Assembly (NCBI GenBank): GCA_008632985.1
Contig: QPGO01000272.1
Coordinates: 1 to 64,000 of the forward strand
Length of the DNA stretch: 64,000 nucleotides
Direction: 5' to 3'
DNA from: Psammoneis japonica
Taxonomy: Eukaryota
Position numbers and translations under genes: made by a program. This document shows, in pieces, positions 6,932 through 64,000 of the stretch. The notes below the pieces were generated by a model. That model was not told the DNA's origin. It saw only the letters and a program-made list of their open reading frames with translations, and made no database searches. How positions within the stretch are numbered: position 1 is the first letter of the stretch; each line of letters starts with the position of its first letter.

Positions 6932-6942
6932 GACTGTTAATC
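6932..6942 (-). promoter_or_regulatory. Putative primer-binding site complementary to a tRNA-Asn(GUU) anticodon arm
   Basis: Minus-strand GATTAACAGTC directly abuts the 5' LTR. Its complement GACTGTTAATC has the form of a GUU anticodon stem-loop. Confidence 0.55.
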
Positions 6943-17399: not shown

Positions 17400-17647
17400 T
17401 TCCTTCGGTGGAAGCAGCATTGCGTTTTTTTCTTTTTCCAGTTCACAGGACATTCCATCCCCGTGATTGCTGAAATGGACTCTGGACTGTACTTTCGTCT
17501 CTACCAGGATAGAGAGATAATGTTAGCATCAAATTTACACATATAACCCGCGCAATGAAGTTGCTTGACTCGATTATTCCTAGCTCTACCGTATGAAATT
17601 GAAAATGAAAATAGCATGCTAATGAGAGCGATAGAGCACTAGACTAT

Positions 17648-23599: not shown

Positions 23600-24445
23600 G
23601 CAGAGTCAAAAATGCAATTATCGCTCACTTGGGAGTGTGCAAGGCTCAGAAGATGCCACCGTTGCGCTGTTGCTCCTCCAGATCGCCAGAGAGCTTGTGA
23701 TCCTCGCAGCAATACACGTGCAACTCATTATCTTCACCGATAAGGTTTTCGTCCCAGGCACAAAGGTGGTGGATTTGCTCTTTGCAATCCTCTTTGTGGC
23801 ATTCATGAGTTAGGTGTCCCGGAAACGGATGCCTGCAGTGCTCACGCAAGCAACAAAAAAAGGGAGGGTCTCACCCTCCGTTGGTGGTGCGTCTTCCTCC
23901 TCGTCACTTCTGGCCTGGTCCACCTCGCTTAGCAGCACGCCTTGGCGACGTAGTTCCGCCAAGATGCGGTCCTGCTGCGTCAAGATTCGTTCGATTCGTT
24001 CGCCTTGGCGTTCCTGTTCCGCCAAGACTCGTTCTCCTTGGCGTTCCTGTTCCACTAAGCTGCGTTTCTGCTGCGCCAAAATTCGTTCGGCCCAACCAGG
24101 AGTGCGGTCACCATTATCAGTGCTGGTTGGAGCGGCGTTGCCGTTGTAGGTGTCGCCGACGTTCATCTTTTCGGCTTGATATTGATTAATAGTAATGCTG
24201 ACCTCCTTTCCTTCACCAATACTAGTAGCCAGAAACGCAAGTAAATCATCTGAAGCGGCGCCCGTCAGTACGGTAGGAGCACCACCAGTGCGTTGTGCCG
24301 CCGTCGACTCGGAAGATGATGCCATCTGCGTGGAGTTCAATTGAGAAACGGAATACAAAATGTCACTCAGCACACGAGTGGATAGAACGCCACTAAGTAT
24401 CATACGGGGTGCATACTAAAGTGCAATATAACAGTATGTACTCAC
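23600..24445 (-). pseudogene. Coiled-coil repeat + Cys/His Zn-finger gene, copy 1 (no SUMO-like domain)
   Basis: ERILAEQERQG repeats; CCLREHCRH...HECHKEDCKEQIHHLCA...YCCEDH; GTGAGT donor at ~24445 and CAG acceptor at ~24327. Confidence 0.6.
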
Positions 24446-26349
24446 CGCCGCAACTGTAGTAACCCTCACTTCTCACTTGCTCTCTGGTATTGTATGAAAA
24501 TGACAGCAGCTAGTTGTCGTGCCGGTTGTGGCTGCCGCGGCGAGATTCAAGATTTTGCTGAAAGCGGAGTAACGATAGGAGTCTGCCCGTTGGCAAGGCA
24601 TGTCTCAAGCGCCACGTAGAGTTTGTATTGGGAACTACGTGAGTGTTCTGCAAAATGCAAACGGCTTTTTATGAACGTATGCATTACTTCTATTGTTCAT
24701 TTTTGAAATTAGACACAAAATAATCATATACCACGTTGAATACAATAAATAAGTTTGAATCGTGCGTGCGTCATCATACGATTTTGGCGCGCTCACAAAT
24801 TCATTTTACTGTAACACAGAATCGCAGATGCCCCGCCACCGCCTCGGCTTGGCTACAACCCCGATGACATGACACAGTGCACAGCTGCCGATTGGCCACA
24901 ACAATTCATGTGGTGCGCCGCTCAGGTGGCAGCTGGAAAACAGGGAACAAATGTCTGCAGCTCCAGCTCCATCCAATTTGTTCCCCAACACTGTGCAAAC
25001 AGACCACCTGCTGGCTGCAGATGCATCGGAGGCACAAGAGGAGCCAGCCAGAAACAAGAAAATGGAATTGAAGCTGCAACTCATGAGCTGAAGTCAGGCG
25101 ATGAGCAGAGAGCATGCATCTCAAGTGGGGGAGCATGCTGCAAATGCCAAAAACTGCAATGGTTGGCAGTGTCAGAAAAACAATCAACCAGAAAGCTGGC
25201 TGCCATCATCCAAATTGAACACAATGAAATGGCAGATGAAACACACAGAATGGCAAACATGCAACAAAATTGAAATTTTGAAAAGCAACAAAAACCAGCA
25301 GAGGAGGTGGGGCATGGCCGCAGAGCGGGGTCAAGAGCTCTGCATTGGCGATCCTCCAAAAGAGTGGAGTTCCTGAGGTGGGCCAAGAAGAAGGCCGTTG
25401 ACTTCCATCACAAGAGCCATCAGATGGACTGTGCACTGAAGCTCCAACACATGAAGGGAATGAGCGGGCCAATGTGAGAGTGCCTTCTCATCCCTGACAG
25501 GATGAAGGTGGGCTGACAAACTGTTGAGGTGACTTCACACATGTCGTCCTCTGTCTCCTTGGAGGTGACAAGCTGAACATCTCCACCTGCTGGTCCACAG
25601 ATGGAAAGCGGGGTGGTGGTTTCATCCCCACACCACAAACACAAATGAGCCGCTTGATGTTGCAATGCGCGGGCTTGATCAAGTCAAGACCACCACACTG
25701 GAGGTTCAAAGTGAAGAGTTTCTCCTCTCCACTGTCTCTGTTCTTCTGTGTGAGCCAGCACAACCACATCTTCTCATGGAAGAGACAGGAGCCAACAAAA
25801 TTTTGGCACCAGCAAGGCATTGGCAGTTTGGCCAGTCTTGATTTAGATGCCATCAAGACACCATGCACAAGCACCACCCTTGGAATCAGCAGCCAGACAA
25901 GCCAGGTGATTTTTTTTGTGCTAAAAAATCAGTTTGACACAGCAAAACTTTGTTTGCACACAAAATGTGTTGCCAGTTGTTCTCTTTTCTGACGATTTTT
26001 TGCTCCATTGGGATGTGTGTCACAAACTTCCTTGGCAGACTCAATGCTGATTGTGCGTCAGTCCACCCCTCACTGAGATTTCTTTGCAGGCAGAAAACCT
26101 GCCAAGCAGCATCGTGGAAAGACACACTCAGGTGACACCCAAGTGACGGCAACAATTTTGTCAAATGTCATCTGTTGTGTTGTGATTCATTCATCGCAAT
26201 GAAAAACATGGACAGCACAATGACAACAACATTGCAGCACTCACACGAGTCTTGTCAGTGTTGCAAAACATTCAAATTTGAACAAATCTGCGCTTTTGGT
26301 GGTGAAAAACCGTTCGTGAGTCAGAGACCACGCAAAAATTGTGCAATTC

Positions 26350-27570: not shown

Positions 27571-29449
27571 GTGCACATGCTGCCACCTGGAATGAGCAAC
27601 AAAGTGGTTTGCAGGTTTTTGGAGGATTGAGGTTGCTGCTCAGTTTTGTTGCTGGTGGTGAGACACAAATTGCTGCTTTGATTGTGCCAAAGGCAACAAT
27701 CTCCCACATGGTTTTGTTGGTCAGGGCCATTGCAGCATCTCCCATGTCTTGACACAAGGGTGAGGACTTGGAAGAAATGCATGTCAAATGTGCAAGAAAG
27801 CTGCAAAACAGTGGCAATGTTTTGCTTTGTGATGGAGCTGTTGTTGAATTGTGACAACTCTGTGGGAGTTGAGCTGTCAAAGAGTGGCCGGCTTGGACAA
27901 ATGTGAGCGCTTGCATTGAGGTTGTGGCAAAAAGGAACAGGTCAGAACTGACAGAATGGAAAGAGGAACACCTGACAAAGCGAGGAGTTGAAAATGTGCC
28001 TGGAGCAGTTGGAGCACTGTGGAATCCACAGGCAACATGCTCTCCAGTCAGCAGTGCCCAGCTTCGATGCCCTCTCATGCTCTCGGTTTTGCAAGCCCTG
28101 AAAGTTGCCAGGAAGCCAAATCTCTGCTCAAACTGTCACTTTCCATTGGATGGCTTCAGCATGCCGCCAGCAAACTTCTTGTCATCATCTGGCTGCAATT
28201 CCCACTCCTTTTGTCCCTTGTCTGCTTTGCAGCAGGGGTGCTCCAAGATGAGTCCGTTGCTGGCTGCTGGCTGCACAGAGAAACAATCCTCTGCATTGAA
28301 ATGCAGCCAGCTCATCCTGCTCCTTGTCTTCAGCCAAAAACTCACCCTGTGCTCATGAAAAATGATGTTCCAGCTGACGAAAGTGCCCAGCCAGTCTTTG
28401 GTTTTAACTCCGCCAAAGGCAAGGCCGTGTGTCGCTGGTCTTGAGTGACGATGAGCAAGAGCCAAGCTTTCTCCCCACACCATCACGTTCGCCATCATGT
28501 CTGCCATTTTGTTCAAAACACAGTCAATGAGTTTTCACTTGGTTGCTTTGTTGTTGTTTGGATCTGTGTCAACACACAGTCAGAGGAGCACCCCGGCTGG
28601 CTCTTTTGCCCCCCCCCCCTCCTGTGCCATTGACAACGGCGCGGCTGTGTGTGTCTCGTCTTTTTGACATTGCGCTTCAGAGGTTGAGCTGCTGGGTTCT
28701 CTGTGTGGCTGGCTTTGTCTGCACTGTCAACAGCAAACCTTGCAACAGAGCCAGGCCCAGCAGCGTGGGAGAGAGGAGCTGCCGGACGAGAGGGTGCCGC
28801 ATCGCTTGTTGTGAGGAGAGAAAAGGCTGAGCTGGCTTGAAGAACCCTTTTTAGATGACACTTTGGAAAAGTCAAGTGCAAATCCATCTTGAAAAGCAAA
28901 GCTGCATTCTTTCATTGCAAAGAAGCTGCCACGTGTGCCGGGATTGATGCTTTTCAGAGCATGTGGCCCTCTCCCTGCTGAGCTCCTCTCCACAGCAGCG
29001 CTCAAAAAAGCTGACTTTGTTGGCAAGGCAAAAGCTCTTGGACATGAAAGCGCAAAAAAAAGCACATTATCCTGTGAAAAGAAACCATCTGAGCAAAGCA
29101 AAAGAGCATGGACCATGGTGCGTTGATTTCGCTGGTTCGTCACGGTCGCGATTCGCGTCGTGCGTCGCACTCGGCCCTTCGGGGGTGTGCGCAAGCGCGC
29201 TCGAAAACGGTCGACGCATCGACTCACGATGGACGGACAGCGCGTGCGTGCGCGCCGACGGGACCAAAAATGAAAAATCCGCAATCCGCAAGCATGCGAA
29301 CACAGAGAGCACGGCAATGGCGGCCATGAATCAATCTGCATGGACCGTCATGTCTGTCATGCAAGTGCATGGAGAGCGAACGCAACGCCAAGCAACCAAC
29401 CAAAAGAGGTGGAAGTTAATCTAAAACTGAATGACTATCTCTCGACACC

Positions 29450-30886
29450 ATGGCGCGAGTAACGAACAAGACGAGGAGAAGTTGAGATTGGGCCATGCAT
29501 GCATGTTGCCAAACGTTCCGGAAACTTACCTGAAAAAAAACACCTTGTTTGTAGGGAAAGTGCCGTGTTTGTAGTTGGTGAACCTATCCGGTAACCTAAC
29601 CGGCCGATGGTGTGGTGGATGCCATTCTGCGGAAGGCGCAAGTTGGGGAGTGGGGAGCACAATGTCACGTGTCAGGATGTGAAACGAGAAGAGGAAGAGC
29701 ACTTACATCAGAAGTGGAAAAGAGCAAGAAGCAAGAACCATTTCCAGGCATTTCTTTTGCTCTAGCACTTTGCTTGTTGAATCCGAGAAACGCGAGAGTC
29801 ACAAGAGCAGCACCAAAAGGCAACTAGAAACAAGAATCGGACGACTACATGGTGGTACTCGAGAAACGCTATCAGGACACGGCTCGAAAGATTGAAGCGT
29901 GGCAAGAATTGGAAACCAAAGAGTGCGCTGCTGCCGCCGCTGAAGTTTTAGACGCTTCTACTCCAATCGATATTGAGGGAATCAAGCATCTTTCATCCAA
30001 GAATTTTTTGGTGTGGAAGAAGACACACGGTCGATGGAGGTGTTTATGAAGCTGCATCGCGGCGAGGCTTTGAAAAGGTTTTAGAAGAGCCCAACGACCG
30101 AGATACAGGGACTTGGTGTTCAGGAAGCATACAATGAAATGATTAGGAATGTCTATCTCAAAAAGCACGCCAAGGATATCGTCAATTACGTCAACGGAAA
30201 GTACAGCAAGACCCAAATCGATTCAAACGGGATGGAACTCCCATTACTAGAGAGTGATTCTCGCCGGATACTCTCTTGGTGGAGGGTTAGCTCAAGTTGC
30301 ACACCTTTGTACAAGAGCTCCGCCGGATCATCGTGGATCCTTTTGGACTAAACTTGTCGGAGCGTTGAAGGACGTCGATATCATAGCCATTACAATCTCT
30401 GCGCTCGTGACGACAGTCTTGGACAAGCCTTCCGAGGATACTTTAAGCTTTTTACATGACTCGATTGAACCTTATTTTCGCAACGTTGTGTTTAGTGCTG
30501 ACTTTGTACCAAGAGGATACTCGGATGTTGAGTTTATTGATGACTTTTTGAATGCCTTCCTGGACGATGCAACCAAGGCGTCGTCTGACGTTGCCGATCA
30601 GTTTGCCAGGTCCTTCGTCAATTTGCATTTGAGTTTGTTTAAAATGAGAGGAATGATGGAACAAGCCAAGATCTATCGACGTGTCGTTAAGCTCATTTAT
30701 TACGACAAACCGGTCTCTGTGCCGGTCTTGTATGTGGATAGTTCAAAAGAAGCGGATGAGAAGACGCGGTTTCGAAGCATAAGATATGGACCCAAAACCA
30801 AAGTGGCAGATATCGCGTTGGAAAATCACATTATGTTGGTTTCTGGACCAGGACTTGTAGCCAGTCCGGCTACGTCTGCGAAATAG
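29450..30886 (+). pseudogene. Class 3 lipase-like gene, copy 2 (internal deletion, frameshifts)
   Basis: ILAGYSLGGGLAQVAHL, NVVFSADFVPRGY, ENHIMLV; nearly identical to 55370-56000. Confidence 0.78.
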
Positions 30887-31456
30887 ATCAATGATAATGT
30901 TGCATCCGCTAGTAGTTAGTAGAGGGAGGTTGATACGAGTAAGAATGATAAAGGGTATTCATTTTACGTCTACCAGTCCCTTGGACAATACAATCAACAA
31001 GAGTTTATGCCAGGACTACGACTCATATAGGAACCGAATAAGACTTCGTGCCATTTAGCTCAGGGCCATACAAAAAACGAGATCACGACGTACAAATGGC
31101 ATCGATTTGCGCAGGAGAGTAATGAGTGACGACGTCTCGAGGAGGAAGCGGGACGACGGCAATGGCACGCCCAATGCCACTCCCGCCATCGATAATGCTA
31201 GCTCAGTTTCTGTGATCGGCTTATCCTTTCGGAGTGTTAAATCCATGCTATTGATAGTGTGCAGATTGGTAGACAGCGTAAGAAAATAGACTCATTTCGT
31301 TTTCAATTCAAAGATACAGAATGTTGACTTTAGTTGCTATTTCTCAAAATCAAGTAGTACTCTCGAACGCCAACATATCAAATACGAGTACGATTATTTT
31401 GCCACATCACGAAGACCAACACAGAGGCAACGCAGAGTCGAAAATGCAATTTTCGC

Positions 31457-34120
31457 TCACTTGGGAGTGTGCAAGGCGCAGAAGAGGTCCCCTTCACATT
31501 TGGGTCTGAATTTATTTTTGCAGCGACGATGCCCGTCCTTGATGTTCGCCGAGCATTGGATCGTCGCCGAGCCAGCTTGGGCATCTCGAGAACCTGCAGT
31601 GCCAGCAGCGTCGCCATCGCCACTCGGCTTCGCATCACCCTCAGAGGCACCATCATCTTCTCTATCGACGCTCACACATACCTCGTCGACGGGTCCACTA
31701 TCGACGTTCGTATTCTTGAGCAAAGCAATCACAGCAAAGACAAAAGCATTTGATTAGGGGGTGTAGTGTTTGAGAATGAGAAAAATATGAAAAGAAAACC
31801 ACATACCACATTGACGGGCGTGCTAGAATTCGAACTCGAACGGAGCTTCGGATCTACATCAAACGTAGGCTGCATTGCAGCGACAAGGCGACTGTCATTT
31901 CCAGCCACCGCTGCTGCTCCATAGACAACATCAGCAAGACTGTCTGCCTTTGGCTTGTTTTCGGAAGACTGCTGTTGCTCCTTGAGCTCACCGGAGATCT
32001 GGTGCTCCTTGCAGCAATGGGCGTGATTCTCATTTTGACCGAGTAGCTTTTCCTCAAGGGCGCAAAGGTGGTGGATTTGCGCTTTGCAACCCGTTGCGTG
32101 GCATTCGTGAGGGACATGGCCTGGACGATTATGCTTGCATTTGTCACGCAAGCAACAAAAAGGAGGGAGGGTCTTATCCTCCGTTGGTGGTGCGTCTTCG
32201 TCCTCGTCGTCCTCATCACTTGAAAGCTCAATGGGCGCGTCTTTGTAGACGCCTTTCTTCAATTCCACATCAATGACGAATCCGTCTTCCATGTCTAAGC
32301 TTCTTGGTGTTTCGGTTGGTTCGATTTCGCGTCCGTCATACTTGAAGATGAACTTGTCCACCTTAACATCAATTCGCCCTTTATTGTACCGGTGAAAAAC
32401 GCCTTGAAATTTGTCATCGGGATGAACCGCGATAGGGGTTTCCATCTCCTTCTCCTGAAAGACCAACGTAATCTCGTCGTATTCCAGCTTCGTCCGAGCG
32501 GCCGGTTCTTCGCGGACGCTGCTCCGATGGGGCACCGAGGGCTCCTCCTTGCGCCTGCCAAAACCACATGAGAAACAAGCAAGTCACAAAAATTAATGAC
32601 AGTAATCGCAAAATGACAAAAAGAAACAATCTCGGAAACTTACTGTGGAGAAGATACATCATTTTGGTACCGTGAAGTATCTTCACAGGGGTACGATGGT
32701 TGTAGCGACTGGCACTAGCAGGCGGCTTCTTGGTAGTCGCCTGTTTGTGCACCTCGCTTAGCTGCACGCCTTGGCGTTCCTGTTCCGCCAAGATTCGTTC
32801 GCCTTGGCGTCCCTGTTCTGCCAAGACTCGACCCTGTTCCGCCAAGATTCGTTCGCCTTGGCGACCCTGTTCCGCCACGATTCGTTTGCCTTGGAGTTCC
32901 TGTCCCTCCAAGATTCGTTCCACCCAACTAGGAGTGCGGTCACCACCGTCGGTGCTGGATGGAGCGGCGGTGCTACCGTCAGTACTGGATGGAGCGGCGG
33001 TGCTACCGTCAGTGCTGGATGGAGCGGCGTTGCGACCGTCAGTACTGGTTGGAGCGGCGTTGCCGTTGTAGGTGTCGCCGACGTTCATCTTTTCGGCTTG
33101 ATATTGATTAAAAGTGATGTTGACATTTCCTGTTTGGCTAACCCTGGCCATGGCAGACTCAAATACATTGTTTGAAGTGGCGCCCGTCAACACGGTAGGA
33201 GCACCAGTGCGTTGTACAGTCGCCGACTCGGAAGATGATACCGTCTGCGGGGAGTTTAATTGAGAAACGGGACACAAAATGAATAAGCCAGCAAACAAGT
33301 GGATAGAATGCCACAGAGCATCATACGGCGTGCATGCTAAAGTACGATATAACAATGTGTACTCACCGGCAACTCTTCATTGTCGGTACCAGGAAGCACA
33401 CGAGGTTCTTGTACCCGTGCCGGTACGTCCGTCCGCTGTGTAGCAGTTGCCGCGGGACGACGCTACAGATGAGGAACAAGTTGCAAGGAACGAAAACAAG
33501 GCGTTAGATAAAACAACAAGTTAGAAAAGCATAGAAACACACAGTGTCATGTCATTTGAACAAATTCACATGCGCGTGTGCTTGCTTCCTTCTCCCTGTC
33601 CTTGATGATGTTGACCTGTCTTTTCACTTCCTTCTTGCACTCACCGTTCAACCACTTTTCTGCAACTTGAGCTTGGATGTTGGCAACGTGAGTTTCAATG
33701 TGTGAGCCGAACTCTCTTTCACAATTGTTTTTTAATCCCGCGACATTGCCTTGATCGTCGCGAGGCATCCATTCCGCGGGGTCTTTCATGATGGCCTTCA
33801 TCAAGTCTTCGCAATCCCCGTCCTCGATGGATGAACACCTTCTCCATTTTAACACTGCCTTTTGTTGCTTTCTTTGCAACCACACGCTCATCACCATTCT
33901 CGTCCGTGTGAATAAAAGTGTGCCTCATGATCAGAGGCACAGCGATCGATGCTCGGAGTTCCGCACGCTTGTGTGCCGGCAATTTGAAAGCCCGCCTCAA
34001 CTGCTTTGCGTCGAGGCCAGTGTGAGCTGGATCACACCAGTTTTCCACGAGTGATGAGTCCTTTGCGAGCTTCTCGAGGTCCTCACATGAAAAGGAAGAG
34101 ACAAGTCCTCGTTTGACCAT
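31457..34120 (-). pseudogene. Multi-exon gene, copy 2: coiled-coil repeats, SUMO/ubiquitin-like domain, two Cys/His fingers; putative first exon TpA-mutated
   Basis: EITLVFQ...FIFKYDGREIEPTETPRSLDMEDGFVIDV (SUMO-like); CCLRDKCKH...CKAQIHHLCA; CSANIKDGHRRCKN...FCALH; 30-bp repeats encoding AAPSSTDGST. Introns inferred near 33464-33545 and 33244-33365. Confidence 0.65.
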
Positions 34121-52600: not shown

Positions 52601-52731
52601 ACGGCAGATACGAAGTGTTCGTGAGAGCAGGATGTGATGACAATGCACAATTTCACTTCAATGATGACTCACATTGGAACAGAATCACAACGGCACAATG
52701 TCCCGCGTTGAACCAATTCTGGGTCAAATGA
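46675..52731 (+). pseudogene. Giant single-frame ORF (one in-frame TGA at 48433-48435): DUF6589-like putative DDE transposase followed by a RecQ-like SF2 helicase
   Basis: FAFDNSQ, YVVGDSLS, PAPGDLHVEFH, DVVEMVN. Helicase motifs AFQRDAV, QPTSGGKS, VVPLLSV, FDEVH, FGLAFRRDF, MTAT, AGAGLD, QELRRAGR, CGNACPHC. Confidence 0.7.
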
Positions 52732-55369
52732 AACGCAACCAGCGTGTTCAATCCACAGAGCTTGTCGTCGATGCCGCCAACCATGGCATTGTCATCCAGA
52801 TCTGCCCACACCAATCACACCATGGCAAGTCCCATCATTCCCACAACACACTTTGTGACAGGCAATCGTTGAGAGTCCGCACTGCTGTCCAGCGGTCCAT
52901 GCACCAAACCTCGAATTGCTTCTGTGCACAATCTGGATGGCTTTGAAGGATCGCATCGGTGCACTGTTTTTTTGGTGCCCCCCACCCCTGTCTCAACAAT
53001 TGAGGGAGCAGAACATCATCAGCTCTGGTTGATGTAGCCACAGAAACCCTCTGAGAGATCAATTGCTGACCCAAAGTTTCGCCGCGCGGCGCACCGGTGG
53101 CAAATCTGCTTGCTCCGTGAGACAAGACAATTGTCCACAATAAAATCCTCACACTTCATGAAGTGGATGCATCCACAGCATTTTCTTGCATGACACAGAG
53201 TGAGCCACATGTTGCCTTTAGGGGGAAACAAACAATGAATGAGAAATTTGGCATGAACGCTGTCGCAAGAACCATTGTCATCACCAGACTCGCCGAATCT
53301 CACCAACTCAATGTTTTGGAACAACCGATGAATTCCCCTCAAACCAGTGGCACAGTGTTCTCATGTGCAACTTGCAGCAAAGGTGTGTGCCCCTGCTTTC
53401 TAAGGAAGAGGGAGAGCACAGTCAGAATGGCCCATCAGGTGAACATCATCAATGAACCGCGGTGTTTGTGTGGTGCGATTTGCGTTCTGAGCAGCGAAAT
53501 GGCTTGACAGTGCGTAGAGTTGTCGCGGTGTAGGGGCCTCTACGCAAATTCAGTTCCAGGGTATTTCATATATAATCATGTTGATAAATTATCTTCGTAT
53601 GTGTGTCTAATGTGACGAAGATAAGATACGAGCACGCCCAACTCCTTTTTCACATTCACCCCTCGGCGTAATTCACACGGCCAAATGTTTGCGTAGAGGC
53701 CCTTGCTCAGGGGTGGTCGGACTGCGATGACTGATGAATCATCTATGGCTCCAACTTCGTACTGAAAGACCCCATCATAAAATATATACAACATGAATAT
53801 TTAAGATAAATTTTCTGCCGACTAAGAAATAATCGGCTTCATTCGCTCTCGCCACTCGGCGCTGTCATCACAATCAACCCGAAACATCAATGCAACGATA
53901 TAAGGAGAAGATGATGAGCAACGGGCACCGAGAGACTAAAACGCCACCGTAGTTAACACGGTAGTAACAAGGTAAGTGTAGGTAGAAGAGGATTATTTTT
54001 TCTTCAGTGCCACACATTAAATGTCAGTGGACGCACAGAGGACGAAATTTTTTAGAAGAACTTGTTTGTATTGATGCCAATCCTGCTGCTGACACTCCTT
54101 CCGTTTAACCCCTCGTATTGTTCCAGGAGAATAGTTTTTAACATAGCAGTATTTCTCCTGGTTGGAGCCCTTGGGTATGGAGCTCAAGATCAACTCTGAA
54201 CTCGAAATGCTTCTTCTCGTCAAGCTTGAACAGTTGGCCTTGTCGTTTGCTCGTTGAGTTTGTTGAGAAACGAGTACGTGGCCCAGATCAAATCCATCCA
54301 GCACAACTTGCGACAAACCAAACGCGACATAGGGTGGAGAGTAGCATTCTCGAAGTACGACTGTACCAAGTGACGAGCGGCCTGTGCCACACAGTGCTTT
54401 TGATGCTCTAGTTTGTTCTCAAGCTTCCAACATTTGGAACCTTACAGTACGGCATCAAGCAAGATGCAACCATAAACCCCGTCCACCCTTAGACGGTTCT
54501 ACAACCAGATAAACCAAACTGAAGTAATGCAAACAATGCTAACATTCCATTGTGACAAAACTCATTATAGTCTTAACTAGCAACTGGTAAAAAATTCAGT
54601 TCTTACTCCTTATTGTCACCCACTTCAGCCGCCCCGGAGGAGGTGCACTTCTTGGCGGCACGTTCAGGAGAACCTTGTCCATAGGGGCCATGCCATTGGC
54701 CGAAACGTGAATTTGCTCTTCACTCAACGTGAGCACATTGTTGAAAGAGGGCACGCAGCAAAGTTCATGTTTTGACAGCGCACTGCAAAACGTTCCCACT
54801 TTACATGATGATAGAGAGTTACAAAGGTGAAAAAAAACGTCAAATCGAATACGTCGGAGCCTATATTCTATCTTCCTTCCATCGATCTTGCATGGCATCA
54901 TCGTTTGACGCGTCGACGAAGGCGTGAAGGCATCACTGTAAATCGTCATTTCTTCGTCAATTCGGTTCAGTAGCTCGACAAATTACTATAATTTGACGTG
55001 TCTTAGTATGCTTGATTCGTTTTTGATGATTTGTCGAGCTACTGAGACGTCGTTGTTGAGCAGGTCGCAGCGGAACGATGTTTCGCCATTGTCGCGATGC
55101 GCAAACAACACGAAGAAGCACGCGCCGAGGCAACCAAAAACGGAGCAGTCCAACTAGTCAAGTCTTTGCGAACACCCAAATTTATATGTTATTTAGTCTT
55201 TGATAAAATTTATGTTTGAGGTCTTTCTACGGGAAGTTGGAGCCATACCGGTAGAATCAATCTGTCATGTCATGCAAGTGCATGGATAGAGAGCGAACGC
55301 AACGCTTACTAGCAACCAACGAAAAGAGGTGGAAGTTCATCTAAAACTGAACGACTGTCTCTCGACACC

Positions 55370-57468
55370 ATGGCGCGAGTAACGAACAAGACGAGGAGAA
55401 GTTGAGATTTTGCCATGGATGTTGCCAAACGTTCCGGAAACTTACCTGAAAAAAAACACCTTGTTTGTAGGGAAAGTGCCGTGTTTGTAGTTGGTGAACC
55501 TATCCGGTAACCTAACCGGCCGATGGTGTGGTGGATGCCATTCTGCGGAAGGCGCAAGTTGGGGAGTGGGGAGCACAATGTCACGTGTCAGGATGTGAAA
55601 CGAGAAGAGGAAGAGCACTTACATCAGAAGTGGAAAAGAGCAAGAAGCAAGAACCATTTCCAGGCATTTCTTTTGCTCTAGCACTTTGCTTGTTGAATCC
55701 GAGAAACGCGAGAGTCACAAGAGCAGCACCAAAAGGCAACTAGAAACAAGAATCGGACGACTACATGGTGGTACTCGAGAAACGCTATCAGGACACGGCT
55801 CGAAAGATTGAAGCGTGGCAAGAATTGGAAACCAAAGAGTGCGCTGCTGCCGCCGCTGAAGTTTTAGACGCTTCTACTCCAATCGATATTGAGGGAATCA
55901 AGCATCTTTCATCCAAGAATTTTTTGGTGTGGAAGAAGACACACGGTCGATGGAGGTGTTTATGAAGCTGCATCGCGGCGAGGCTTTGAAAAGGTTTTAG
56001 AAGAGTCCAACATCCGAGACATGTTTCCAGACTTGACGGTACGCTTCTTTCAGAATGGAGTCGCGTTTGGACGGGATTTGGTATCGGAACGACTGTCTTT
56101 GAATGCTCCCACATTTGTTGGAATAATTACAGGCTCGGCACTCGTTATGGGGTGCCGAGCGACAGTGACAATCAAAGATATCATTGTCGATGCCAATGTT
56201 GATGGGGTGTCGCCATGGAAACAAGTTGCAGGGACTTGGTGTACAGAAAGCATATTATGAAATGAGCAGGTATGTCTATCACAAAAAGCACGCCACGGAT
56301 ATCGTCAATTACGCCAATGGAAAATACAGCAAGACTCAAATCGATTCAAACGGGATGGAACTCCCATTACTAGAGAGTGATTCTCGCCGGATACTCTCTT
56401 GGTGGAGGGTTAGCTCAAGTTGCACACCTTTGCACGAGAGCTCCGCCGGATCATCGTGGATCCTTTTGGACTAAACTTGTCGGAGCGTTGAAGGACGTCG
56501 ATATCATAGCCATTGCAATCTCTGCGCTCGTGACGACAGTCTTGGACAAGCCTTCCGAGGATGCTTTAAGCTTTTTACATGACTCGATTGAACCTTATAT
56601 GCGCAACGTTGTGTTTAATGCTGACGTTGTACCAAGAGGATACTCGGATGTTGAGTTTCTTGATTACTTTTTGAATGCCTTCCTGGACGATGCAACCAAG
56701 GCGTCGTCTGACGTTGCTTCCGATCAGTTTGCCAGGTCCTTCGTCAATTTGCATTTGAGTTTCGTCAATTACGTCAACGGAAAGTACAGCAAGACCCAAA
56801 TCGATTCAAATGGGATGGAACTCCCATTACTAGAGATTGATTCTCGCCGGATACTCTCTTGGTGGAGGGTTAGCTCAAGTTGCACACCTTTGTACGAGAG
56901 CTCCGCCGGATCATCGTGGATCCTTTTGGACTAAACTTGTCGGAGCGTTGAAGGACGTCGATGTCATAGCCATTGCAATCTCTGCGCTCGTGACGACAGT
57001 CTTGGACAAGCCTTCCGAGGATACTTTAAGCTTTTTACATGACTCGATTGAACCTTATATGCGCAACTTTGTGTTTAATGCTCTGACGTTGTACCAAGAG
57101 GATACTCGGATGTTGAGTTTATTGATGACTTTTTGAATGCCTTCCTGGACGATGCAACCAAGGCGTCGTCTGACGTTGCCGATCAGTTTGCCAGGTCCTT
57201 TGTCAATTTGCATTTGAGTTTCTTTACAATGAGAGGAATGGTGTAACAAGCCAAGCTCTGTCGACATGTCGGTAAGCTCATTTATTACGACAAACCGGTC
57301 TCTGTGCCGGTCTTGTATGTGGATAGTTCAAAGGAAGCGGATGAGGAGCGGTTCTGAAGCTTAAGATATGGTCCCAAAACCAAGGTGGCAGATGCCGCCT
57401 TGGAAAATTACATGGTGTTGGTCTCTGGACCGCGACTTGCAGCAAGCCCGGCTACGTCTGCGAAATAA
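55370..57468 (+). pseudogene. Class 3 lipase-like gene, copy 3, with an internal ~460-bp tandem duplication (56302-56761 / 56762-~57220)
   Basis: GYSLGGGLAQ segment present twice; in-frame stops and frameshifts. Confidence 0.78.
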
Positions 57469-58769
57469 ATCAGAAGCGTAATGTTGCATCCGACAGTTAG
57501 TAGAGGGAGGGTATTCATTTTGCTTCTACCGGTCCCTTGGGAAATGCAGTCAACAAGAGCTTTTCCCAGGACTGCGACTCATGGAGGAAATGAATAAGTC
57601 TTCGTGCCGTTTAGCTCAGGACCATGCAAAAACGAGACCACGACGTACAAAAGGCATCGATTTGCGCAGGAGAGCAACGAGAGACAACGTCTCGAGGAGG
57701 AAGCGGAACGACGAATGCCCAAGCGGGAAGATTCAATCCGTGATGAACTTGAATTGGCGAAAGTCAAGTCTTCTTTGGACAACAAAACACGACATCGTCG
57801 TGTAGAGCTCTCTGCGGCTACGTGGAATCCATCAAAGCAAGATTGAACTTAGTGGCTTTTTCCATAGCACTGTTTGTCCTGGACGAGACGACGAGTTAGG
57901 ACACCCTTCTGCAGCAAAGTAGATAGACTACACGAAGACCTAGTGGATGTGGTGGAGATTGCAAGGGAGACTTCTCATGCAGGATTGAAAGTAAGTGGCC
58001 GCTCTTCTCAAAATGAGCTGCACATCCATGAAAAAACAGTTGAGGCGAAGCTTTGACTCGTCGACGCCCTAAAAGAAAAATGGTTCCAGGCGAAACCGTG
58101 GCAAAAAAAGTAGAGGCGTAGCTTTGACTCGACGGCGCCCACAAAGAAAAATGGTTTCAGTCGAAACCTTATTTGGTTCAATGAAGTGGTGTCATTCCCG
58201 TTGATGAAGAGGACAATGGCTTTCTGTCGACAAGCGACGACCACTGGGCAGATTGGATGACTCCACACATCTACGGAAATGGCCAACTTGGGAGAAGCCA
58301 CCGAATGGCTTCACGATTTTGTCGTCGACAGTTGAGCTGCCGGCAGACACTTCGCCTCTGTAGATGCAACAAGGGGTGAGCCCGGCATCAAAGTTCGAAG
58401 AGCGATCCAACAGGACGCTCCGACGCCACAGCAGGAAAACAACATTGAAGAAGGGCACATGAACGACAATGGCATGCCCAATGCCACTCCCGCCATCGAC
58501 AGTGCTAGAACTCGGTTTCCGTGATTGGTTCATCGAAAGGATAAACGGTTTGTCCTTTCGGGGTGTTAAATCCGTGCCATTGACAGTGCGCGGCTTGGCA
58601 GACAGCGTTGAGCAAAAAGACTCATTTCGTTTTCAATTCAAAGATGCAGAACATTGACTTTAGTTGCCACTTCTCAATGTCAGGCAATGCTCTCAAAGCC
58701 AGCATGTCAAATACGAGTGTGATTATTTTGCCACATCACGAAGACCAACACAGAGGCAAGCAGAGTCGA

Positions 58770-60470
58770 AAATGCAATTTTTGCTCATGTGGGAGTGTGC
58801 AAGGCTCAGAAGATGTCGCCGTTGTGCTGTTGCTCCTTGAAATCACCAGAGAGCTTGTGCTCCTCACAGCAACACACATGCAACTCATTGTCTTTGCCGA
58901 TGAGCTTTTCGCCCCAGGCACAAAGGTGCCAGTGGATTTGCTTTTTGCAATCCTCTTTGTGGCATTCGTGAGGCAGGTGTCCCGGAAACGGATGCTTGCA
59001 GTGCTCACGCAAGCAACAAAAAGAAGGGAGCGTCTCATCCTCCGTTGGCGGTGCGTCTTCCTCCTCATCACTTCTGGGACACACGGCATTTTGTCGCATT
59101 TGGCAACATTTTCTTAAAAATGAATTGATGGTTTGTCGTGAAAAGACGCGAATTGCGACAAAATGTCTGGGTTGGCGACAAACGGGACAGAAACATTGTT
59201 CAACCAAGTTGCAAAATGATCAATGTCATCATTTGCAAACAACCTGAATGTTTGGCGATGTCGTTTCAACAAGTGGGGCAATTGACAGAATTTGGCGATC
59301 GACGTCATCGACGAAAATTCATCCGACAAAATTTGTCGTGTGCCACAAAATTTGTCGCACCTGACAAATTTTGTTGGATGTCCGACAAATTTTGTCGGCA
59401 TGCGACACGACATGACACGACAAGACAAGACACGACAAGACACGACAAGATGCGGCGCGACACGACGACTCACGAATGAAACACCCACGCCCCCCGCACA
59501 CGCCAACCGACCGCTGACGTCTCCGTTGACACTGCCGGTGTGTCTCTTTTGCACGATGATGCAAAGCAACGATCATGCTGCTCTCGGCGGTCTCCATGCT
59601 CTCGTCAATGCTGGGACAACATCGCACGCTTCTACATGGTGCAACGGAATGTGCCGGCATGCGTTGTTGCGCTGCACCTTTTGTCAGTGCGACTGGGCAC
59701 TTCTGAATGTTGGGGAGCATTGCGTCATCGGCATGTCGCAAACGTCCATCTGTCGGCGTTTGTCGGCTCTTGTCGGTGTTTGTCGCACGTTGTCGGGGTT
59801 TGTCGGATGCGACAAAATTTGTCGTGCATCCGACAAAATTTGTCGCACGTCCGACAAAATTTGTTGCATCTGACAAAATTTGTCCTGTCCGACAAAATTT
59901 GTCGCACGTGCGACAAAATCGCCAAAACATCAGTTGATGAGTGCAGTCTTCGCCGAAAGCCAAACTCATCATGTGGCGCTGCAGTTGACACAACGTCTGT
60001 GTTTGGGACACGCCATCGCCAATTAAATGATGATTTTGTCTTGTTTGTCGCCAACGGCCAAAATTTGTCTCAAAGGGCGTTTTTCACGACAAATCGTCCA
60101 GCTCATTTGTGGGAATGTCGCAATTGGCGACAAAATGCCGTGTGTCCCTGCCCTGGTCCACCATGACCCAACCGCAGGGTCGCTGCCGTCAGTGCGTGCT
60201 GGTTCGAGCGGCATTGCCGGTGCAGGTGTCGCCGACGTGGAAGTTTCGTCCAGAAACGCAAGCAAGTCATTTGAAACGGCACCCGTCAGTGCGGAAGGAT
60301 CGCCAGTGAGTTGCGCCGCCGTAAACTCGGAAGATGATGCCACCTTGAATCTGTGTGGAGTTCAATTGAGAAACGGAACATAAAATGTGAGTCAGCACAC
60401 AAGTGGACAGAACGCCACCAAGCGCCACACGGTGTGCATGCTAAAGTGCAACATGACAGCATGCACTCAC
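58770..60470 (-). pseudogene. Coiled-coil/Zn-finger gene, copy 3, disrupted by a MITE and TpA-mutated
   Basis: Colinear with 23600-24445 on both sides of the 59077-60147 insertion. Confidence 0.75.
59077..60147. mobile_element. ~1.07-kb non-autonomous TIR element, PIF/Harbinger-like
   Basis: TIR GGACACACGGCATTTTGTCGC / GCGACAAAATGCCGTGTGTCC; 3-bp TSD CTG; empty site visible in copy 1 (~23908 TTCTGGCCTGGTCCACC); internal arrays of the palindromic CGACAAAATTTGTCG motif. Confidence 0.85.
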
Positions 60471-60764
60471 CCGCAACTGCAGCGACCCTCACTTCTCACT
60501 TGCTCTCTGGTGTGAAAATGACAGCAGTTGTCAGGAGCACGTCATCAGTTGTGGGTGCTGCAGCAACAGATTCAGCAGATTTGGCTGCAAAGCCAGTCTC
60601 CCGTTGGTGTTTTGCTTCTTCGCAGGGCGCCGGCAAGCGATGAGCGCCAGCCACATGCACAATCCTGCAAACAACTGGCGAGAGCAAGCAACAGCTGAAG
60701 CCAACCGTCACCGGCCGAGGACATTTTTGATCGGCTGAAGGACAAGTCTCAAGGCGCCAACCAT

Positions 60765-61000
60765 CTGCTGCAAACTTTTCGAGGACAACTCGGCTGCACT
60801 CGCAATCGTGAAGGTGCGCCTGAGATGCATCCAAGAACGCGTCACATCGACAATGTCTGTCACCATTTTTGCTCTGAAGTTGCCAACAGAAGCCTGCTGA
60901 TTGAGGCTGTTGGCTCCAAACTCCAGCAAGTGGACTTCCCAATGAAAATGCCGGACCTGTCGTTGTTCATCCACCGTTGCCTGTCTGTGCAGGGATGGCA
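60765..61000 (+). mobile_element. Fragment of a second copia lineage (RNase H C-terminus)
   Basis: CKLFEDNSAALAI...MHPRTRHID..CHHF.SEV...QGW matches the copia FEDN...RTKHI..YHHFR motif. Confidence 0.7.
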
Positions 61001-62699
61001 ACAACTCGGACATTTTGGCGTGTGAGAATGTGTGCACTCCCGTGGTGTGCATCATCATGCCACCAAGTCCTGTGTGCCACAATGACCCTTCAGAAACTGC
61101 CATCAACTGCCATCAACAACTCGCCCAATCAGAGATCAAGAAATGAATGAGATCGGAGGTCTGGGGTGCAATCGAGAACAGAGCCTCACCTCCATTCTTC
61201 TTTTGTGCAATCATCAAGAACTTTTTGTTCTGGGTGAGTCTTCACACCATGTTCATCTGTGTTGAGTTTGGCACAAATCACTTCTTGTTCTCTGCAAATT
61301 CTTGTTGGTTTCCAAGTGGAGTGGTTTTTGTTCTCACAATTTGGTGACTGGTCAATTCGCAACTCCCAGGTTGTCCACTTTGCCATTTCCATCTCTGCGG
61401 TGCAAACTGATGCATTCCCACACAAGAAATGCCATCAAGCTGGGAGTGATGGAGAACATCATTTTGCCATCATTCCACAAAAGGAAACTGTGGAACAGCA
61501 CAGCTGATGAGTGCAATGATGGCGGGAATGTGGCCAGAGAGCAGTGCCTCATTTCCAGAAATCTGCAAGATTGGCTGAAAAGAAACAAAAAAAAGAGATG
61601 CGCGCGCATTTGAGTCTCAAGCTCAAATGAGATTCTGGACAAAAAAGCGCAGCTCAGACAAAACATAAACTGCAGCACACATTGGATGCCAGACAGAGTT
61701 CCAGTCCATCAGAGTGTAAACTGGGCAGACACGCTGCACGTGCAACTGCAGTCAAAATCGAGCCAAAGCAGATCACCTCTTTGTCATTTTTGGGTCGATT
61801 GATTGAGTTCCCAGAAATTGCATCCCAGCACCAACCACCATCTTGGGGTGGATTGGATGGCTTTTTCAAGTGTCACCTCAAGATTTTGCAAAGTTCGCTC
61901 CCTTGCTGAACTTCATGTTGGTCCCACCTTTGTTGCAACAGAGCTTGTTTGCACAACACACAGTGGTTTCATTTTGTGGAAGCTGAAATTTTTGTGTGAG
62001 CATTTGTCAGCTGCTGTGCCACAGTTGTCAGTGGCACATCATTGCAACAGGCAGAGGCTGGGTGTCGGGAATCCAAATGTGCATTGACGTGCAATGCTGT
62101 CTTTGCATGCCAGGCACCCTGCCCGGTGATTGGCTGCAGGGCGCTTTGCTGTCCCCGTCCCCGGGTGCGAATGCACGCGCGGTTGTTGTCCCGGCATCTG
62201 AGATTGACGGTGCAGCTTGCTGAGCACTGGCTGCATCTGCTGGTCTAAAATGACTGCCAGTGTGGTGCACAAATGAAGTTGTTTGTGAGCTTCACTGCTG
62301 GTGGCAAGACACATCACAATGCTGCATGATCTGCCCTCTCCAGATTTTCTTTTTTCTGGTGCTTTTCCACATTTGTGAGCACATTTTTTCATCATGAGCA
62401 CGCAATGGCATTCAAGTGGGATGTGGCACCACAACCGTGTGACAGTGATGGTGCTTTGGCTGTCTTGATGCCAGATGTTGAGGTTGTCTGGGAGCAGGTG
62501 GTCAACATTTGGTCCAGGAATTTGGAGCGCAGCTCAAGCAGGGCTCATTTGGAGTGTGGTGCAAAGGGGCAGACCAGCACCATCCTCCTCCCACTGGGGG
62601 TGCCTGGAGCTGATCTAAGACAAAGGGATGCATGATCCCCTCAGGCAATGATGAGTTGCCTGTGACTCTCAGCATGGCTTTTGCCATTTGTCAGCCAGC

Positions 62700-63193
62700 C
62701 ATGCACTTTGTCAAGCAACACACCACCCTCTTGTTCCGCCATGTGCGAGAGGCGATTGCCTGCAGTTTCCTCAAGTTTCATTTCATTGAAGGTTCCCACA
62801 ACCCAGCTGACATCCTCAGCAAGCACTGGAGCCACTCCCAGGTCTGGAACTTTCTTCATCCTCTGATGTTTTGGAGTGTCAATCCCAAGGCTTTCAACTG
62901 ATCCGATTTCAAATCTGTTGCTGTTGACCCCTCAAGCAAACTGGGGAGTGACAGGATTAGAAAGAGATTTTGGTTTGCCACATGTGATTGTGTGTGCTCT
63001 CAGTTTTGCGTGCAGTGCGCAATGCAGTTTGCTTTCAAGCCACATGGCTCACAAGAACAACAACAGCAGTGCCGGTGTCATGACACCAGTCTTTCTTCTC
63101 CTGAAATGGTCTCAGCACAGAGACTCATTTGCCACTTAGACAGCAGCAAGGAGTCATTGTTTTCTTCCACCCACTCATCTTCAATTTCTGTCA
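62700..63193 (+). mobile_element. Truncated relative of the 111-7218 copia family: RNase H end, PPT and 3' LTR (62949-63193)
   Basis: FRHVREAIA...FIEGSHNPADILSKHW; CCTCAAGCAAACTGGGGAGTGACAGGA identical to the first element; ends TTCAATTTCTGTCA. Confidence 0.88.
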
Positions 63194-64000
63194 TGAGGTC
63201 AGGACGCAGAGTCTGAAGGTTCATTGCAAGTGTCTCCTCACACATCTTGGCTTTCCTGTTGGCTGCTTCATGTTTCACTTGGCACAAAACATCCTTGTGG
63301 GCTGCTGAAGCAAAATCTGAGTGGCCACAAAGTGAGCCCCACATCACATGGAAGAATGCAGGAGCACTCACTTCACATTTTTGGGTGCAGACTTCATTGG
63401 ACAAAGGATGAATGGTCCTGAAAATTTGATTGGGAGGGCAGACAGGGCCATTCTGTGGCTGTCATCAGCCAAGGTCTTGCCATCTGATGCCGGATTGCTC
63501 CGCAAATGTGTGTTGCCAGTTTTTCTTTTTTCTCTGACAATTTTTTGCTGCATCAAAATTTTCAGCTCTGTGGCAATTGCACAAGGAGGTTCAAGGTTCA
63601 AGGCAGGTTTGAGGGCAGTGAGTGGTGATGATTTCCCTTTGCGTCTGCTTGTTGGCGCACATGTGTGCTGCACCATCGCAGCCAGCTCTCAACACTGCAT
63701 GGGAGGTCTGTCCTTTCCCTGCCGTTTGCTTGAAACAAACAGTGAGCTTTGTTGACTGCACAAAATCAAATGTTGCAAGTGCAAGCAAAAGCAGCAGGAG
63801 GGCTTCAAAGGGGCAAGGTCTGTGTTTTGGCCAAATCATTGTGAGCTGTGACATGGATGCACAAGGGCAAAAAGAGACACAAGCACAACAATGATGTGTG
63901 CACAAATGAGCGCTGATGATTTGGCTGCTGCACTTGATTGCCTCTCAACCAAGGTCTTTGTGTGACAGTGGAGGTGCAATGCAACATGTTGTGTTGGCAT

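What the first reader, a model, noticed from the sequence alone, without database searches (positions are those of the whole stretch)
58200..60520. Hypermutation spreads from TE-rich DNA into duplicated host sequence
Seen: copy 3 of the triplicated unit keeps TA from 55.25 to ~58.2 kb, then loses it over ~0.9 kb approaching the 59077-60147 insertion and beyond. Copy 1 reads GCTACTTCTCAATATCCGGTAATACTC and copy 3 reads GCCACTTCTCAATGTCAGGCAATGCTC. Copy 1 CAATATAACAGTATGTACTCACC corresponds to copy 3 CAACATGACAGCATGCACTCACC. Inference: targeting follows a spreading chromatin or methylation domain seeded by TEs.
Basis: partly seen in the sequence, partly recalled or inferred. Interest (0 to 1): 0.8.

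Follow-up and report, generated by a model that had tools for sequence, protein, structure and literature searches.

The report
TA-erasing hypermutation leaks into host pseudogenes
In a probably diatom genome, a mutation process that rewrites TA steps to CA or TG in repeat-rich DNA has crept about 2 kb into one copy of a triplicated host segment beside a transposon insertion, showing that it works on the chromosome by position and not by repetition.

Summary
Both quoted string pairs exist, and 59077-60147 is a true MITE insertion: 21-bp perfect inverted ends, a 3-bp CTG target duplication, and copy 1 as the empty site.

With copies 1 and 2 as outgroups, copy 3 keeps ancestral TA at 19/20, 32/35, 13/18, 8/14, 3/7, 4/13, 0/1 and 1/11 sites from 55.26 to 60.59 kb. 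A smooth slope (about 2 kb wide, centre about 58.1 kb) or two steps fit better than one step.

Losses are TA to CA or TG, strand-symmetric, independent per site and favour RTAY. Branch length does not explain them. The three dead, duplicated lipase copies keep their TA, so duplication is not the trigger.

The reading is only partly supported. Seven of nine domain edges in the window are steps, so spreading is an exception. Chromatin or methylation guidance is untested; CpG decay rises in the same zone.

The scan has already noted this hypermutation on other pieces of this genome. The closest published case is Bigelowiella natans.

The parts
55263..60593 (.). Copy 3 of the triplicated host unit. 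The left 2.1 kb is TA-normal; the right part is progressively TA-erased.
   Evidence: Self-BLAST and pairwise HSPs; polarised TA fates.
20866..24565 (.). Copy 1, a TA-retaining reference. It carries the empty site for the MITE near 23.91 kb.
   Evidence: TA o/e is 0.49-0.75.
29314..33374 (.). Copy 2, a TA-retaining reference. It has an extra 538 bp (32209-32746) encoding a Rad60-SLD/SUMO-like domain that copies 1 and 3 lack.
55771..57438 (+). Class-3 lipase (PF01764) pseudogene of copy 3. It has 3 in-frame stops and frame changes. TA is retained.
   Evidence: Homologues P0001-P0003 carry PF01764. tblastn mapping and stop counts are. Copy 1 has 7 stops; copy 2 lacks aa 120-186.
56302..57222 (+). 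460-bp tandem duplication inside the copy-3 lipase pseudogene (96-97% identity), without TA loss.
57300..58800 (.). Graded zone. TA retention falls from 13/18 to 4/13, and kept and lost sites are interleaved.
   Evidence: Spearman rho is -0.32, p=0.021, within the zone.
58815..60477 (-). Copy-3 remnant of an orphan minus-strand gene (Cys/His-rich C-terminal part and N-terminal part). The MITE splits it, and it lacks about 200 bp that copy 1 has.
   Evidence: tblastn of the copy-1 and copy-2 ORFs; alignment. An exhaustive protein search found only low-complexity matches.
59077..60147 (.). MITE of 1071 bp. It has 21-bp perfect terminal inverted repeats (GGACACACGGCATTTTGTCGC), a CTG target-site duplication at 59074-59076 and 60148-60150, repeated palindromic CGACAAAATTTGTCG units, 3 TA where about 43 would be normal, and CG o/e 1.34.
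   Evidence: Summed k-mer depth is 1650-3090 against about 31-39 for exact unique contigs.
60594..64000 (.). TA-free, CpG-poor flank beyond the unit. It includes a Copia-LTR-like piece (62712-63195) of very high k-mer depth.

Best explanation
Shown. The right-hand 3 kb of copy 3 (57.4-60.6 kb) has been mutated in place by the TA-erasing process that has stripped the neighbouring repeat-rich DNA. This stretch is a spacer plus an orphan gene copy killed by a MITE. The changes are TpA to CpA or TpG. They fall on either strand, one site at a time, and favour RTAY over YTAR. Their frequency rises from under 10% to over 90% of ancestral TA across about 2 kb, as a slope or a two-step staircase. Target choice goes by position on the chromosome, not by duplication.

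Inferred. The mutator is a TpA-specific DNA adenine deamination (A to inosine, read as G), as proposed for Bigelowiella natans. It is confined to a silent chromatin domain. Most borders of that domain are pinned and sharp. This one lost its pin when the MITE disrupted the bordering gene, so exposure to the mutator now declines gradually toward the lipase pseudogene.
For: Direction of change.
- At 13 sites in 58550-58800 where copies 1 and 2 both have TA, copy 3 keeps 4. In 60148-60594 it keeps 1 of 7.
- Copy 3 has no private TA in 58200-59077 and 2 in 60148-60594.

Specificity, right of 58250.
- TA kept 8/35.
- AA 64/71, TT 56/61, GC 50/58, CA 65/70, TG 62/69.
- AT, AC and GT fall only as neighbours of TA.

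Not explained by branch length. Changes private to copy 3 are listed as [TA loss, CG loss, other transitions, transversions]:
- three left bins: [0,0,1,3], [1,0,1,3], [1,0,2,3]
- 58463-58821: [11,2,3,1]
- 60196-60479: [9,4,5,6]
- TA loss against other changes in the three right bins is 21:21 for copy 3 and 5:65 for copy 2 in the same columns (Fisher p=3.5e-7).

Shape of the decline.
- A logistic beats one step: 2dLL 7.9, p about 0.005, n=119; strict set 5.0, p about 0.025.
- Kept and lost sites are interleaved.

Strand symmetry and independence.
- 21 CA against 13 TG, with 17 runs observed against 17.06 expected.

Sequence context.
- Across 33.5 kb of TA-free DNA, 98 TA survive. ATAT is 0 against 68 in normal DNA and GTAT 0 against 51, but TTAA is 17 against 39 and CTAA 14 against 39.
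- In copy 3, RTAY is 5 kept and 28 lost, YTAR 8 kept and 6 lost (p=0.0098).

Duplication is not the trigger.
- The three lipase pseudogene copies have TA o/e of about 0.45-0.7.
- A 460-bp tandem repeat at 96-97% identity is untouched.

Domain character.
- CpG decay appears in the same zone: 0/93 against 19/90, p=4.7e-7.
- The ratio of CG loss to other changes is 9:21 in copy 3 against 6:65 in copy 2, p=0.011.

Precedent.
- In B. natans mutation-accumulation lines, TpA-only A-to-G/T-to-C mutations were confined to two integrated viral regions. The larger one is single-copy and transcriptionally silent. The authors propose ADAT2-type deamination. I read the Results and Discussion.
Against: - Seven of nine domain edges in the same window are steps, so a general spreading rule fails. 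Why this edge differs is inference only.
- By composition alone the slope beats a step only weakly (2dLL 3.0-3.6).
- A two-step model (0.93, 0.61, 0.21, with breaks near 57.38 and 58.36 kb) fits as well as a smooth slope.
- The unit has a mosaic history. Identity between copies 2 and 3 falls from 97% to 75% along it. Non-TA changes private to copy 3 are 0.6-1.0% on the left against 1.5-4.5% on the right. Part of the contrast may therefore reflect time.
- A 397-bp MITE copy at 36818-37213 keeps 30 TA although it sits inside TA-free DNA. Lying in such a domain is therefore not sufficient at all times.
- No enzyme, chromatin, methylation or expression data were available, and no whole genome is held.
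Confidence: 0.6

Rival explanations
1. Age mosaic or gene conversion. The left part of copy 3 was copied from, or homogenised with, copy 2 recently. It has therefore had less time to lose TA, or had its TA restored. On this view the apparent slope reflects where copying tracts ended, not a spatial gradient of the mutator.
For: - Identity between copies 2 and 3 is 97%, 95%, 89%, 82%, 77% and 75% from left to right.
- On the left, copies 2 and 3 share a short branch and copy 1 is distant. On the right the three are about equidistant.
- Non-TA changes private to copy 3 are 2-4 times denser on the right.
Against: - TA loss per ancestral TA is about 8% on the left against 69-86% on the right (strict sites). 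That is roughly a 15-25-fold difference in hits per site, against a 2-4-fold difference in the clock.
- In 58463-58821, copy 3 has the shortest non-TA branch of the three (4-6 changes, against 12 and 16) yet 11 TA losses.
- Kept and lost sites are interleaved rather than in tracts.
Confidence: 0.15
2. Protection decays outward from the lipase transcription unit, rather than silencing spreading from the MITE. Transcription or its chromatin marks would shield DNA from the mutator. Read-through past the lipase 3' end fades over 1-2 kb and leaves a graded shield. In copies 1 and 2 the convergent minus-strand gene is whole and shields the remainder.
For: - The first drop in TA retention lies between 57367 and 57393, next to the end of the lipase reading frame at 57438.
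- Copies 1 and 2, whose minus-strand gene is not interrupted, have step edges outside the unit.
- The larger hypermutable region in B. natans is transcriptionally silent.
Against: - All three lipase copies are pseudogenes, so their transcription is unproven.
- No RNA run was available.
- This rival differs from the main explanation only in which side sets the border.
Confidence: 0.2
3. Editing before integration. An RNA- or cDNA-level A-to-G editing of transposon intermediates (ADAR-like) would mean only mobile sequences arrive already TA-poor.
For: - Most edges are steps.
- The MITE itself is TA-poor, with 3 TA in 1071 bp.
- ADARs favour a 5' U (as cited in the Discussion of the B. natans preprint).
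Against: - The mutated 57.4-59.08 and 60.15-60.59 kb are contiguous host sequence with TA-bearing paralogues, not part of the mobile element.
- A host LRR-gene tail has a TA-erased paralogue at 26686-27572.
- Two copies of one segment (17745-18489 and 63280-64000) resolved 5 sites differently, CA in one and TG in the other.
Confidence: 0.03
4. Reverse direction. Copies 1 and 2 gained TA by RIP-like C-to-T change at CpA, and copy 3 keeps the original state.
For: Pairwise comparison alone cannot tell the direction.
Against: - It needs parallel gains at the same 9 of 13 sites in two copies.
- TA o/e of 0.45-0.75 in copies 1 and 2 equals that of ordinary gene DNA at 10-17.7 kb, whereas 0.0-0.1 is the abnormal state.
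- Copies 1 and 2 show no excess of C-to-T changes.
Confidence: 0.02

Closest known systems
TpA-specific regional hypermutation of integrated viral DNA in Bigelowiella natans (Mettrop et al., bioRxiv 10.64898/2026.01.13.699255; Results and Discussion read)
   Same: - Changes are almost only A-to-G/T-to-C at TpA, giving TpG and CpA on either strand.
- They are confined to particular chromosomal regions.
- Single-copy DNA can be a target.
- The long-term trace is low TpA with high CpA+TpG.
- Mutations accumulate singly.
   Different: - The organism here is probably a diatom. The best named relative of the window's MFS protein is from Odontella aurita.
- TA erasure is near-complete (o/e 0.0-0.1), against Rho 0.45 for the B. 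natans NCLDV region.
- Targets here are repeat-rich and dead host DNA, not viral inserts.
- The preprint's main text does not contain the words flank, boundary, spread or gradient (0 occurrences each).
- Nothing here measures a live mutation rate.
Leakage of repeat-induced point mutation (RIP) from repeats into adjacent single-copy genes (Neurospora; Leptosphaeria maculans, Rouxel et al. 2011, PMC3105345; one Discussion passage read)
   Same: A repeat-associated hypermutation overruns its target into neighbouring low-copy host sequence and degrades or diversifies genes embedded in repeat-rich DNA.
   Different: - The chemistry is opposite: RIP makes TpA from CpA, whereas this process destroys TpA.
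- RIP needs duplication. Here, triplicated dead DNA is spared.
- By codon logic, TA-to-CA/TG changes cannot create a new stop codon. RIP, as I recall, does.
Family-specific spreading of heterochromatin from transposons into flanks (maize; Eichten et al. 2012, PMC3521669; abstract read)
   Same: - The scale is similar: marks are enriched within 800-1,200 bp of insertions.
- Only some elements spread while most do not, which parallels one graded edge among mostly sharp ones.
   Different: That work measured DNA methylation and H3K9me2. Here only a mutational footprint is seen, and no marks were measured.

Membership tests
TpA-specific regional hypermutation (B. natans type) | Mutations are A-to-G/T-to-C at TpA only | tested here: met
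   Right of 58250, TA is kept at 8/35 sites, against 86-93% for AA, TT, GC, CA and TG. TA loss accounts for 21 of the 51 changes private to copy 3 in the right bins, against 5 of 76 for copy 2.
TpA-specific regional hypermutation (B. natans type) | Confined to delimited chromosomal regions | tested here: met
   Domains have TA o/e of 0.0-0.1. Seven of nine edges are steps.
TpA-specific regional hypermutation (B. natans type) | Both strands hit, giving TpG and CpA | tested here: met
   21 CA against 13 TG, with runs as expected by chance. CA o/e is 1.64 and TG o/e 1.68 in the domains.
TpA-specific regional hypermutation (B. natans type) | Elevated de novo rate measured in living lines | not testable with these tools
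   Only assembled contigs of one sample were available.
TpA-specific regional hypermutation (B. natans type) | Targets are foreign (viral) DNA | tested here: not met
   The mutated stretch is a host spacer and a host gene remnant with TA-bearing paralogues.
Repeat-induced point mutation (RIP) | C-to-T transitions, mainly CpA to TpA | tested here: not met
   The direction is the reverse, polarised with two outgroup copies.
Repeat-induced point mutation (RIP) | Triggered by sequence duplication | tested here: not met
   Triplicated segments at 81-97% identity and a 96-97% tandem repeat keep their TA.
Heterochromatin or methylation spreading from transposons | Silencing marks decline with distance from the element | not testable with these tools
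   No methylome or ChIP data. The only proxy is CpG decay, 0/93 left of 57.3 kb against 19/90 right of it.
ADAR-type editing of RNA intermediates | Acts on transcripts of the mobile element before integration | tested here: not met
   Contiguous non-mobile flanks are mutated in place.

The most novel reading that the evidence does not exclude
Diatom nuclei run a TpA-specific DNA adenine deaminase that is aimed by chromatin position. Its borders are normally pinned by live genes. When a transposon kills the bordering gene, the border advances and the mutator permanently erodes the neighbouring host DNA. The 2-kb slope in copy 3 would then be a fossil record of a silent domain on the move. Transposon insertions would cause heritable, directional mutation of their neighbours, a mirror image of RIP leakage.
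Probability: 0.35. Interest if true: 0.85.

Novelty: new variant of a known kind. Interest (0 to 1): 0.64.

Why it matters
- The three-copy comparison turns a compositional oddity into a polarised, site-by-site record. It shows that the TA-eraser acts on chromosomal DNA in place and chooses targets by position rather than by repetition. It hits either strand one site at a time and has a measurable context preference (RTAY over YTAR).
- Host genes next to transposons can be drawn in. This gives a route to rapid gene death or diversification, like RIP leakage in fungi but with opposite chemistry and without creating stop codons.
- Mostly sharp edges with one graded edge give a concrete, testable link between the mutator and chromatin borders.
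- In four full-text searches aimed at the process, only the B. natans preprint describes it. None describes it in diatoms.

Tried and rejected
- No whole genome is held for this window. A genome-wide metaplot and a search for deaminase genes were therefore impossible.
- Sequencing runs: only three DNA entries of one sample were found, all kept as contigs, and no RNA holder was listed. Laid at 90% likeness they mix paralogues. The 'other letters' at 58646-58719 are the TA-bearing states of copies 1 and 2, so they give no allele information. 245 further differences were not shown. Exact contigs cover 57953-58298, 58730-59102 and 60123-60733, but they are probably from the sample that was assembled and so are not independent.
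- Summed contig depth does not track TA state. It is 126-363 over most of TA-normal copy-3 DNA (one bin at 94) but only 36-44 over some TA-free stretches. This is too rough to count as copy number.
- The MITE sequence matched no other window of the scan.
- Homologue searches for the minus-strand gene found nothing or only low-complexity matches (9 hits on a Ser/Thr/Ala-rich repeat).
- Pfam scans of 22 long ORFs from TA-free DNA gave no match above its curated cut-off. Two large ORFs at 46642-52731 also gave none.
- The 3-bp target duplication is CTG in copy 1 as well, so it does not date the insertion relative to the TA loss.
- The MITE family could not be assigned.
Full report
**What the window is.**
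- It is eukaryotic DNA, probably from a diatom.
- It carries an MFS transporter gene, an LRR_6 gene, a DUF6824 match and a Copia reverse transcriptase.
- The best named relative of the MFS protein is from the diatom Odontella aurita (70% identity over 34% of the query). Closer hits are unnamed.
- In 1-kb bins the window is a mosaic. Ordinary DNA has TA observed/expected (o/e) of 0.45-0.93.
- Blocks at 7-10, 18-20, 25-29, 34-36, 38-53 and 58.8-64 kb have TA o/e 0.0-0.1, CA and TG o/e 1.35-2.15, and usually low CG.
- Pooled, 33.5 kb of such DNA holds 98 TA (o/e 0.05), with CG o/e 0.51. By comparison, 20.3 kb of ordinary DNA holds 863 TA (o/e 0.62), with CG o/e 1.02.
- The scan has already noted this TA-erasing signature on many other pieces of this genome.

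**The triplicated unit.**
- Self-comparison gives copy 1 at 20866-24565, copy 2 at 29314-33374 and copy 3 at 55263-60593.
- The plus strand carries a class-3 lipase gene. Database relatives P0001-P0003 all carry PF01764.
- All three copies look dead. Copy 1 has 7 stops. Copy 2 lacks residues 120-186 and changes frame. Copy 3 has 3 stops and a 460-bp internal tandem duplication.
- The minus strand carries an orphan gene with a repetitive middle and a Cys/His-rich end. Copy 2 alone also has a Rad60-SLD domain.
- Searches found no informative relatives for this gene.

**The insertion.**
- 59077-60147 is a 1071-bp MITE with 21-bp perfect terminal inverted repeats.
- With it removed, copy 3 matches copy 1 apart from one extra CTG. 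CTG is therefore the target-site duplication and copy 1 is the empty site.
- The MITE splits the minus-strand gene.
- Its summed k-mer depth in the public contigs is 1650-3090, against about 31-39 for exact unique contigs. The family is therefore abundant, though this is only a rough measure.
- It has 3 TA where about 43 would be normal, yet its CG o/e is 1.34.

- Both quoted string pairs are at the stated places.
- I projected copies 1 and 2 onto copy 3 and scored only sites whose ancestral TA is supported. Supported means TA in both copies, or TA in the only aligned copy.
- TA retention in copy 3 then runs 19/20, 32/35, 13/18, 8/14, 3/7, 4/13, 0/1 and 1/11 from 55.26 to 60.59 kb.
- From 57300 onward the products are CA 21, TG 13, CG 1 and other 9.
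- Because copies 1 and 2 share the TA, copy 3 lost it. The reverse, RIP-like reading would need parallel gains and is rejected.

**Specificity.**
- Right of 58250, TA is kept at 8/35 sites.
- AA, TT, GC, CA and TG are kept at 86-93%.
- AT, AC and GT fall only because they overlap TA.

**Is it just age?** Partly, but age is not enough.
- The unit is a mosaic. Identity between copies 2 and 3 falls from 97% to 75% along it.
- Non-TA changes private to copy 3 are 0.6-1.0% on the left and 1.5-4.5% on the right.
- Yet in 58463-58821 copy 3 has the shortest non-TA branch of the three and 11 private TA losses.
- Over the three right-hand bins, TA loss against other changes is 21:21 for copy 3 and 5:65 for copy 2 (p=3.5e-7).

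**Shape of the edge.**
- On the polarised sites, a logistic (centre about 58.0-58.1 kb, 10-90% width about 2 kb) beats a single step. 2dLL is 7.9 (p about 0.005, n=119) and 5.0 (p about 0.025, n=71) for the strict set.
- A two-step staircase fits equally well. Its levels are 0.93, 0.61 and 0.21, with breaks near 57.38 and 58.36 kb. AIC is 110.2 against 110.6 for the logistic and 116.5 for one step.
- The first break lies next to the end of the lipase reading frame (57438).
- Kept and lost sites are interleaved, not in blocks.
There it beats a step only weakly.

**Other edges.**
- The same composition fit gives steps of no measurable width at 10.0, 17.74, 20.40, 24.85, 29.41, 33.53 and 53.51 kb.
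- It gives a weak 430-bp slope at 7.17 kb.
- Graded spreading is therefore the exception. Earlier notes on other pieces of this genome also report mostly sharp edges.

**How the mutator behaves.**
- CA and TG outcomes are balanced and randomly ordered in copy 3: 17 runs observed against 17.06 expected. Two other before/after pairs behave the same way. This points to single, independent hits on either strand.
- Surviving TA are biased. RTAY contexts are almost gone (ATAT 0 against 68, GTAT 0 against 51), while YTAR persists (TTAA 17 against 39, CTAA 14 against 39).
- The polarised copy-3 sites agree: RTAY 5 kept and 28 lost, YTAR 8 kept and 6 lost (p=0.0098).
- A first-stage note on the neighbouring stretch makes the same point. 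I saw that note only.

**Trigger.**
- Duplication is not the trigger. The three dead lipase copies and the 96-97% tandem repeat keep their TA.
- Mere location is not always sufficient either. A 397-bp MITE at 36818-37213 keeps 30 TA inside TA-free DNA. Its inverted twin at 36062-36458 has lost 24 of those 30 while keeping 24 of 25 CG.
- TA loss therefore runs ahead of, and apart from, CpG decay.
- CpG decay does rise across the copy-3 border: 0/93 against 19/90 (p=4.7e-7). The ratio of CG loss to other changes is 9:21 in copy 3 against 6:65 in copy 2, p=0.011. This fits a shared silent domain.

**Mechanism.**
- Shown: mutation is in place, set by position, TpA-specific and strand-symmetric, and it leaks about 2 kb into host DNA.
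- Inferred: adenine deamination in DNA, aimed at silent chromatin, with this border unpinned when the MITE killed the bordering gene.
- From memory, not from a call: TadA/ADAT enzymes act on A34, which follows the invariant U33 of tRNAs. That would suit a TpA rule.
- Rivals are listed separately. The main ones are an age mosaic, and protection that fades downstream of the lipase unit.

**Comparison with what is known.**
- The closest match is the B. natans preprint. It reports TpA-only A-to-G/T-to-C mutation confined to two integrated viral regions, with ADAT2 as the candidate enzyme.
- Its main text does not discuss flanks or borders.
- RIP leakage (one passage of PMC3105345) is the functional analogue, with opposite chemistry.
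- Family-specific heterochromatin spreading over 0.8-1.2 kb in maize (abstract of PMC3521669) matches the scale and the exception-not-rule pattern.
- Four full-text searches aimed at the process found no account of it in diatoms. Two further searches looked for the spreading and RIP-leakage comparators.

**Verdict.** It is unproven on what seeds or guides the process, and wrong if taken as a general distance rule.

Noticed in passing
window 36062-36458 and 36818-37213: Two inverted copies of a 397-bp MITE lie 360 bp apart. The left copy has lost 24 of 30 TA (15 to TG, 9 to CA) but keeps 24 of 25 CG. The right copy keeps its TA although the DNA around it is TA-free. This suggests that timing or episodes matter, and that TA loss outruns CpG decay.
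   Followed up: partly
window 16871-17702 vs 26686-27572: The tail of the LRR gene has a paralogue inside the 25-29 kb TA-free block. There, 22 of 35 TA became TG or CA and 25 of 40 CG became TG or CA. This is a second case of host-type sequence rewritten.
   Followed up: partly
window 17647-18489 vs 62199-62293 + 63280-64000: A duplicated segment is cut by the step edge at 17.74 kb. The part right of 17745 is TA-free in both copies, with 5 sites resolved as CA in one copy and TG in the other, which indicates independent erasure. The 62-kb copy carries about 986 bp inserted exactly at the point that matches the edge. Its k-mer depth reaches 54,345.
   Followed up: partly
window 111-7218 (minus strand): A Copia-type element has LTRs at 111-386 and 6943-7218 (94% alike) and an open 1928-aa frame. 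The coding part has TA o/e 0.09-0.18 but CG o/e 0.82-1.0. The stretch at 6.2-7.17 kb keeps its TA.
   Followed up: no
whole window, e.g. 46642-52731: The window has 79 stop-free frames of 150 aa or more, many of them overlapping in TA-free DNA. By codon logic, TA-to-CA/TG changes cannot make a new stop and they remove TAA and TAG. Long open frames there are therefore not evidence of genes. The two largest gave no Pfam match.
   Followed up: partly
window 32209-32746: Copy 2 alone carries 538 bp encoding a Rad60-SLD/SUMO-like domain. Copies 1 and 3 share its absence, so in this part of the unit copies 1 and 3 group together.
   Followed up: no
window 59322-59936: The MITE holds at least eight copies of a perfect 15-base palindrome in two clusters near its ends, possibly transposase-binding subterminal repeats. 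The 3-bp target duplication recalls PIF/Harbinger or CACTA elements (from memory). The family was not assigned.
   Followed up: no
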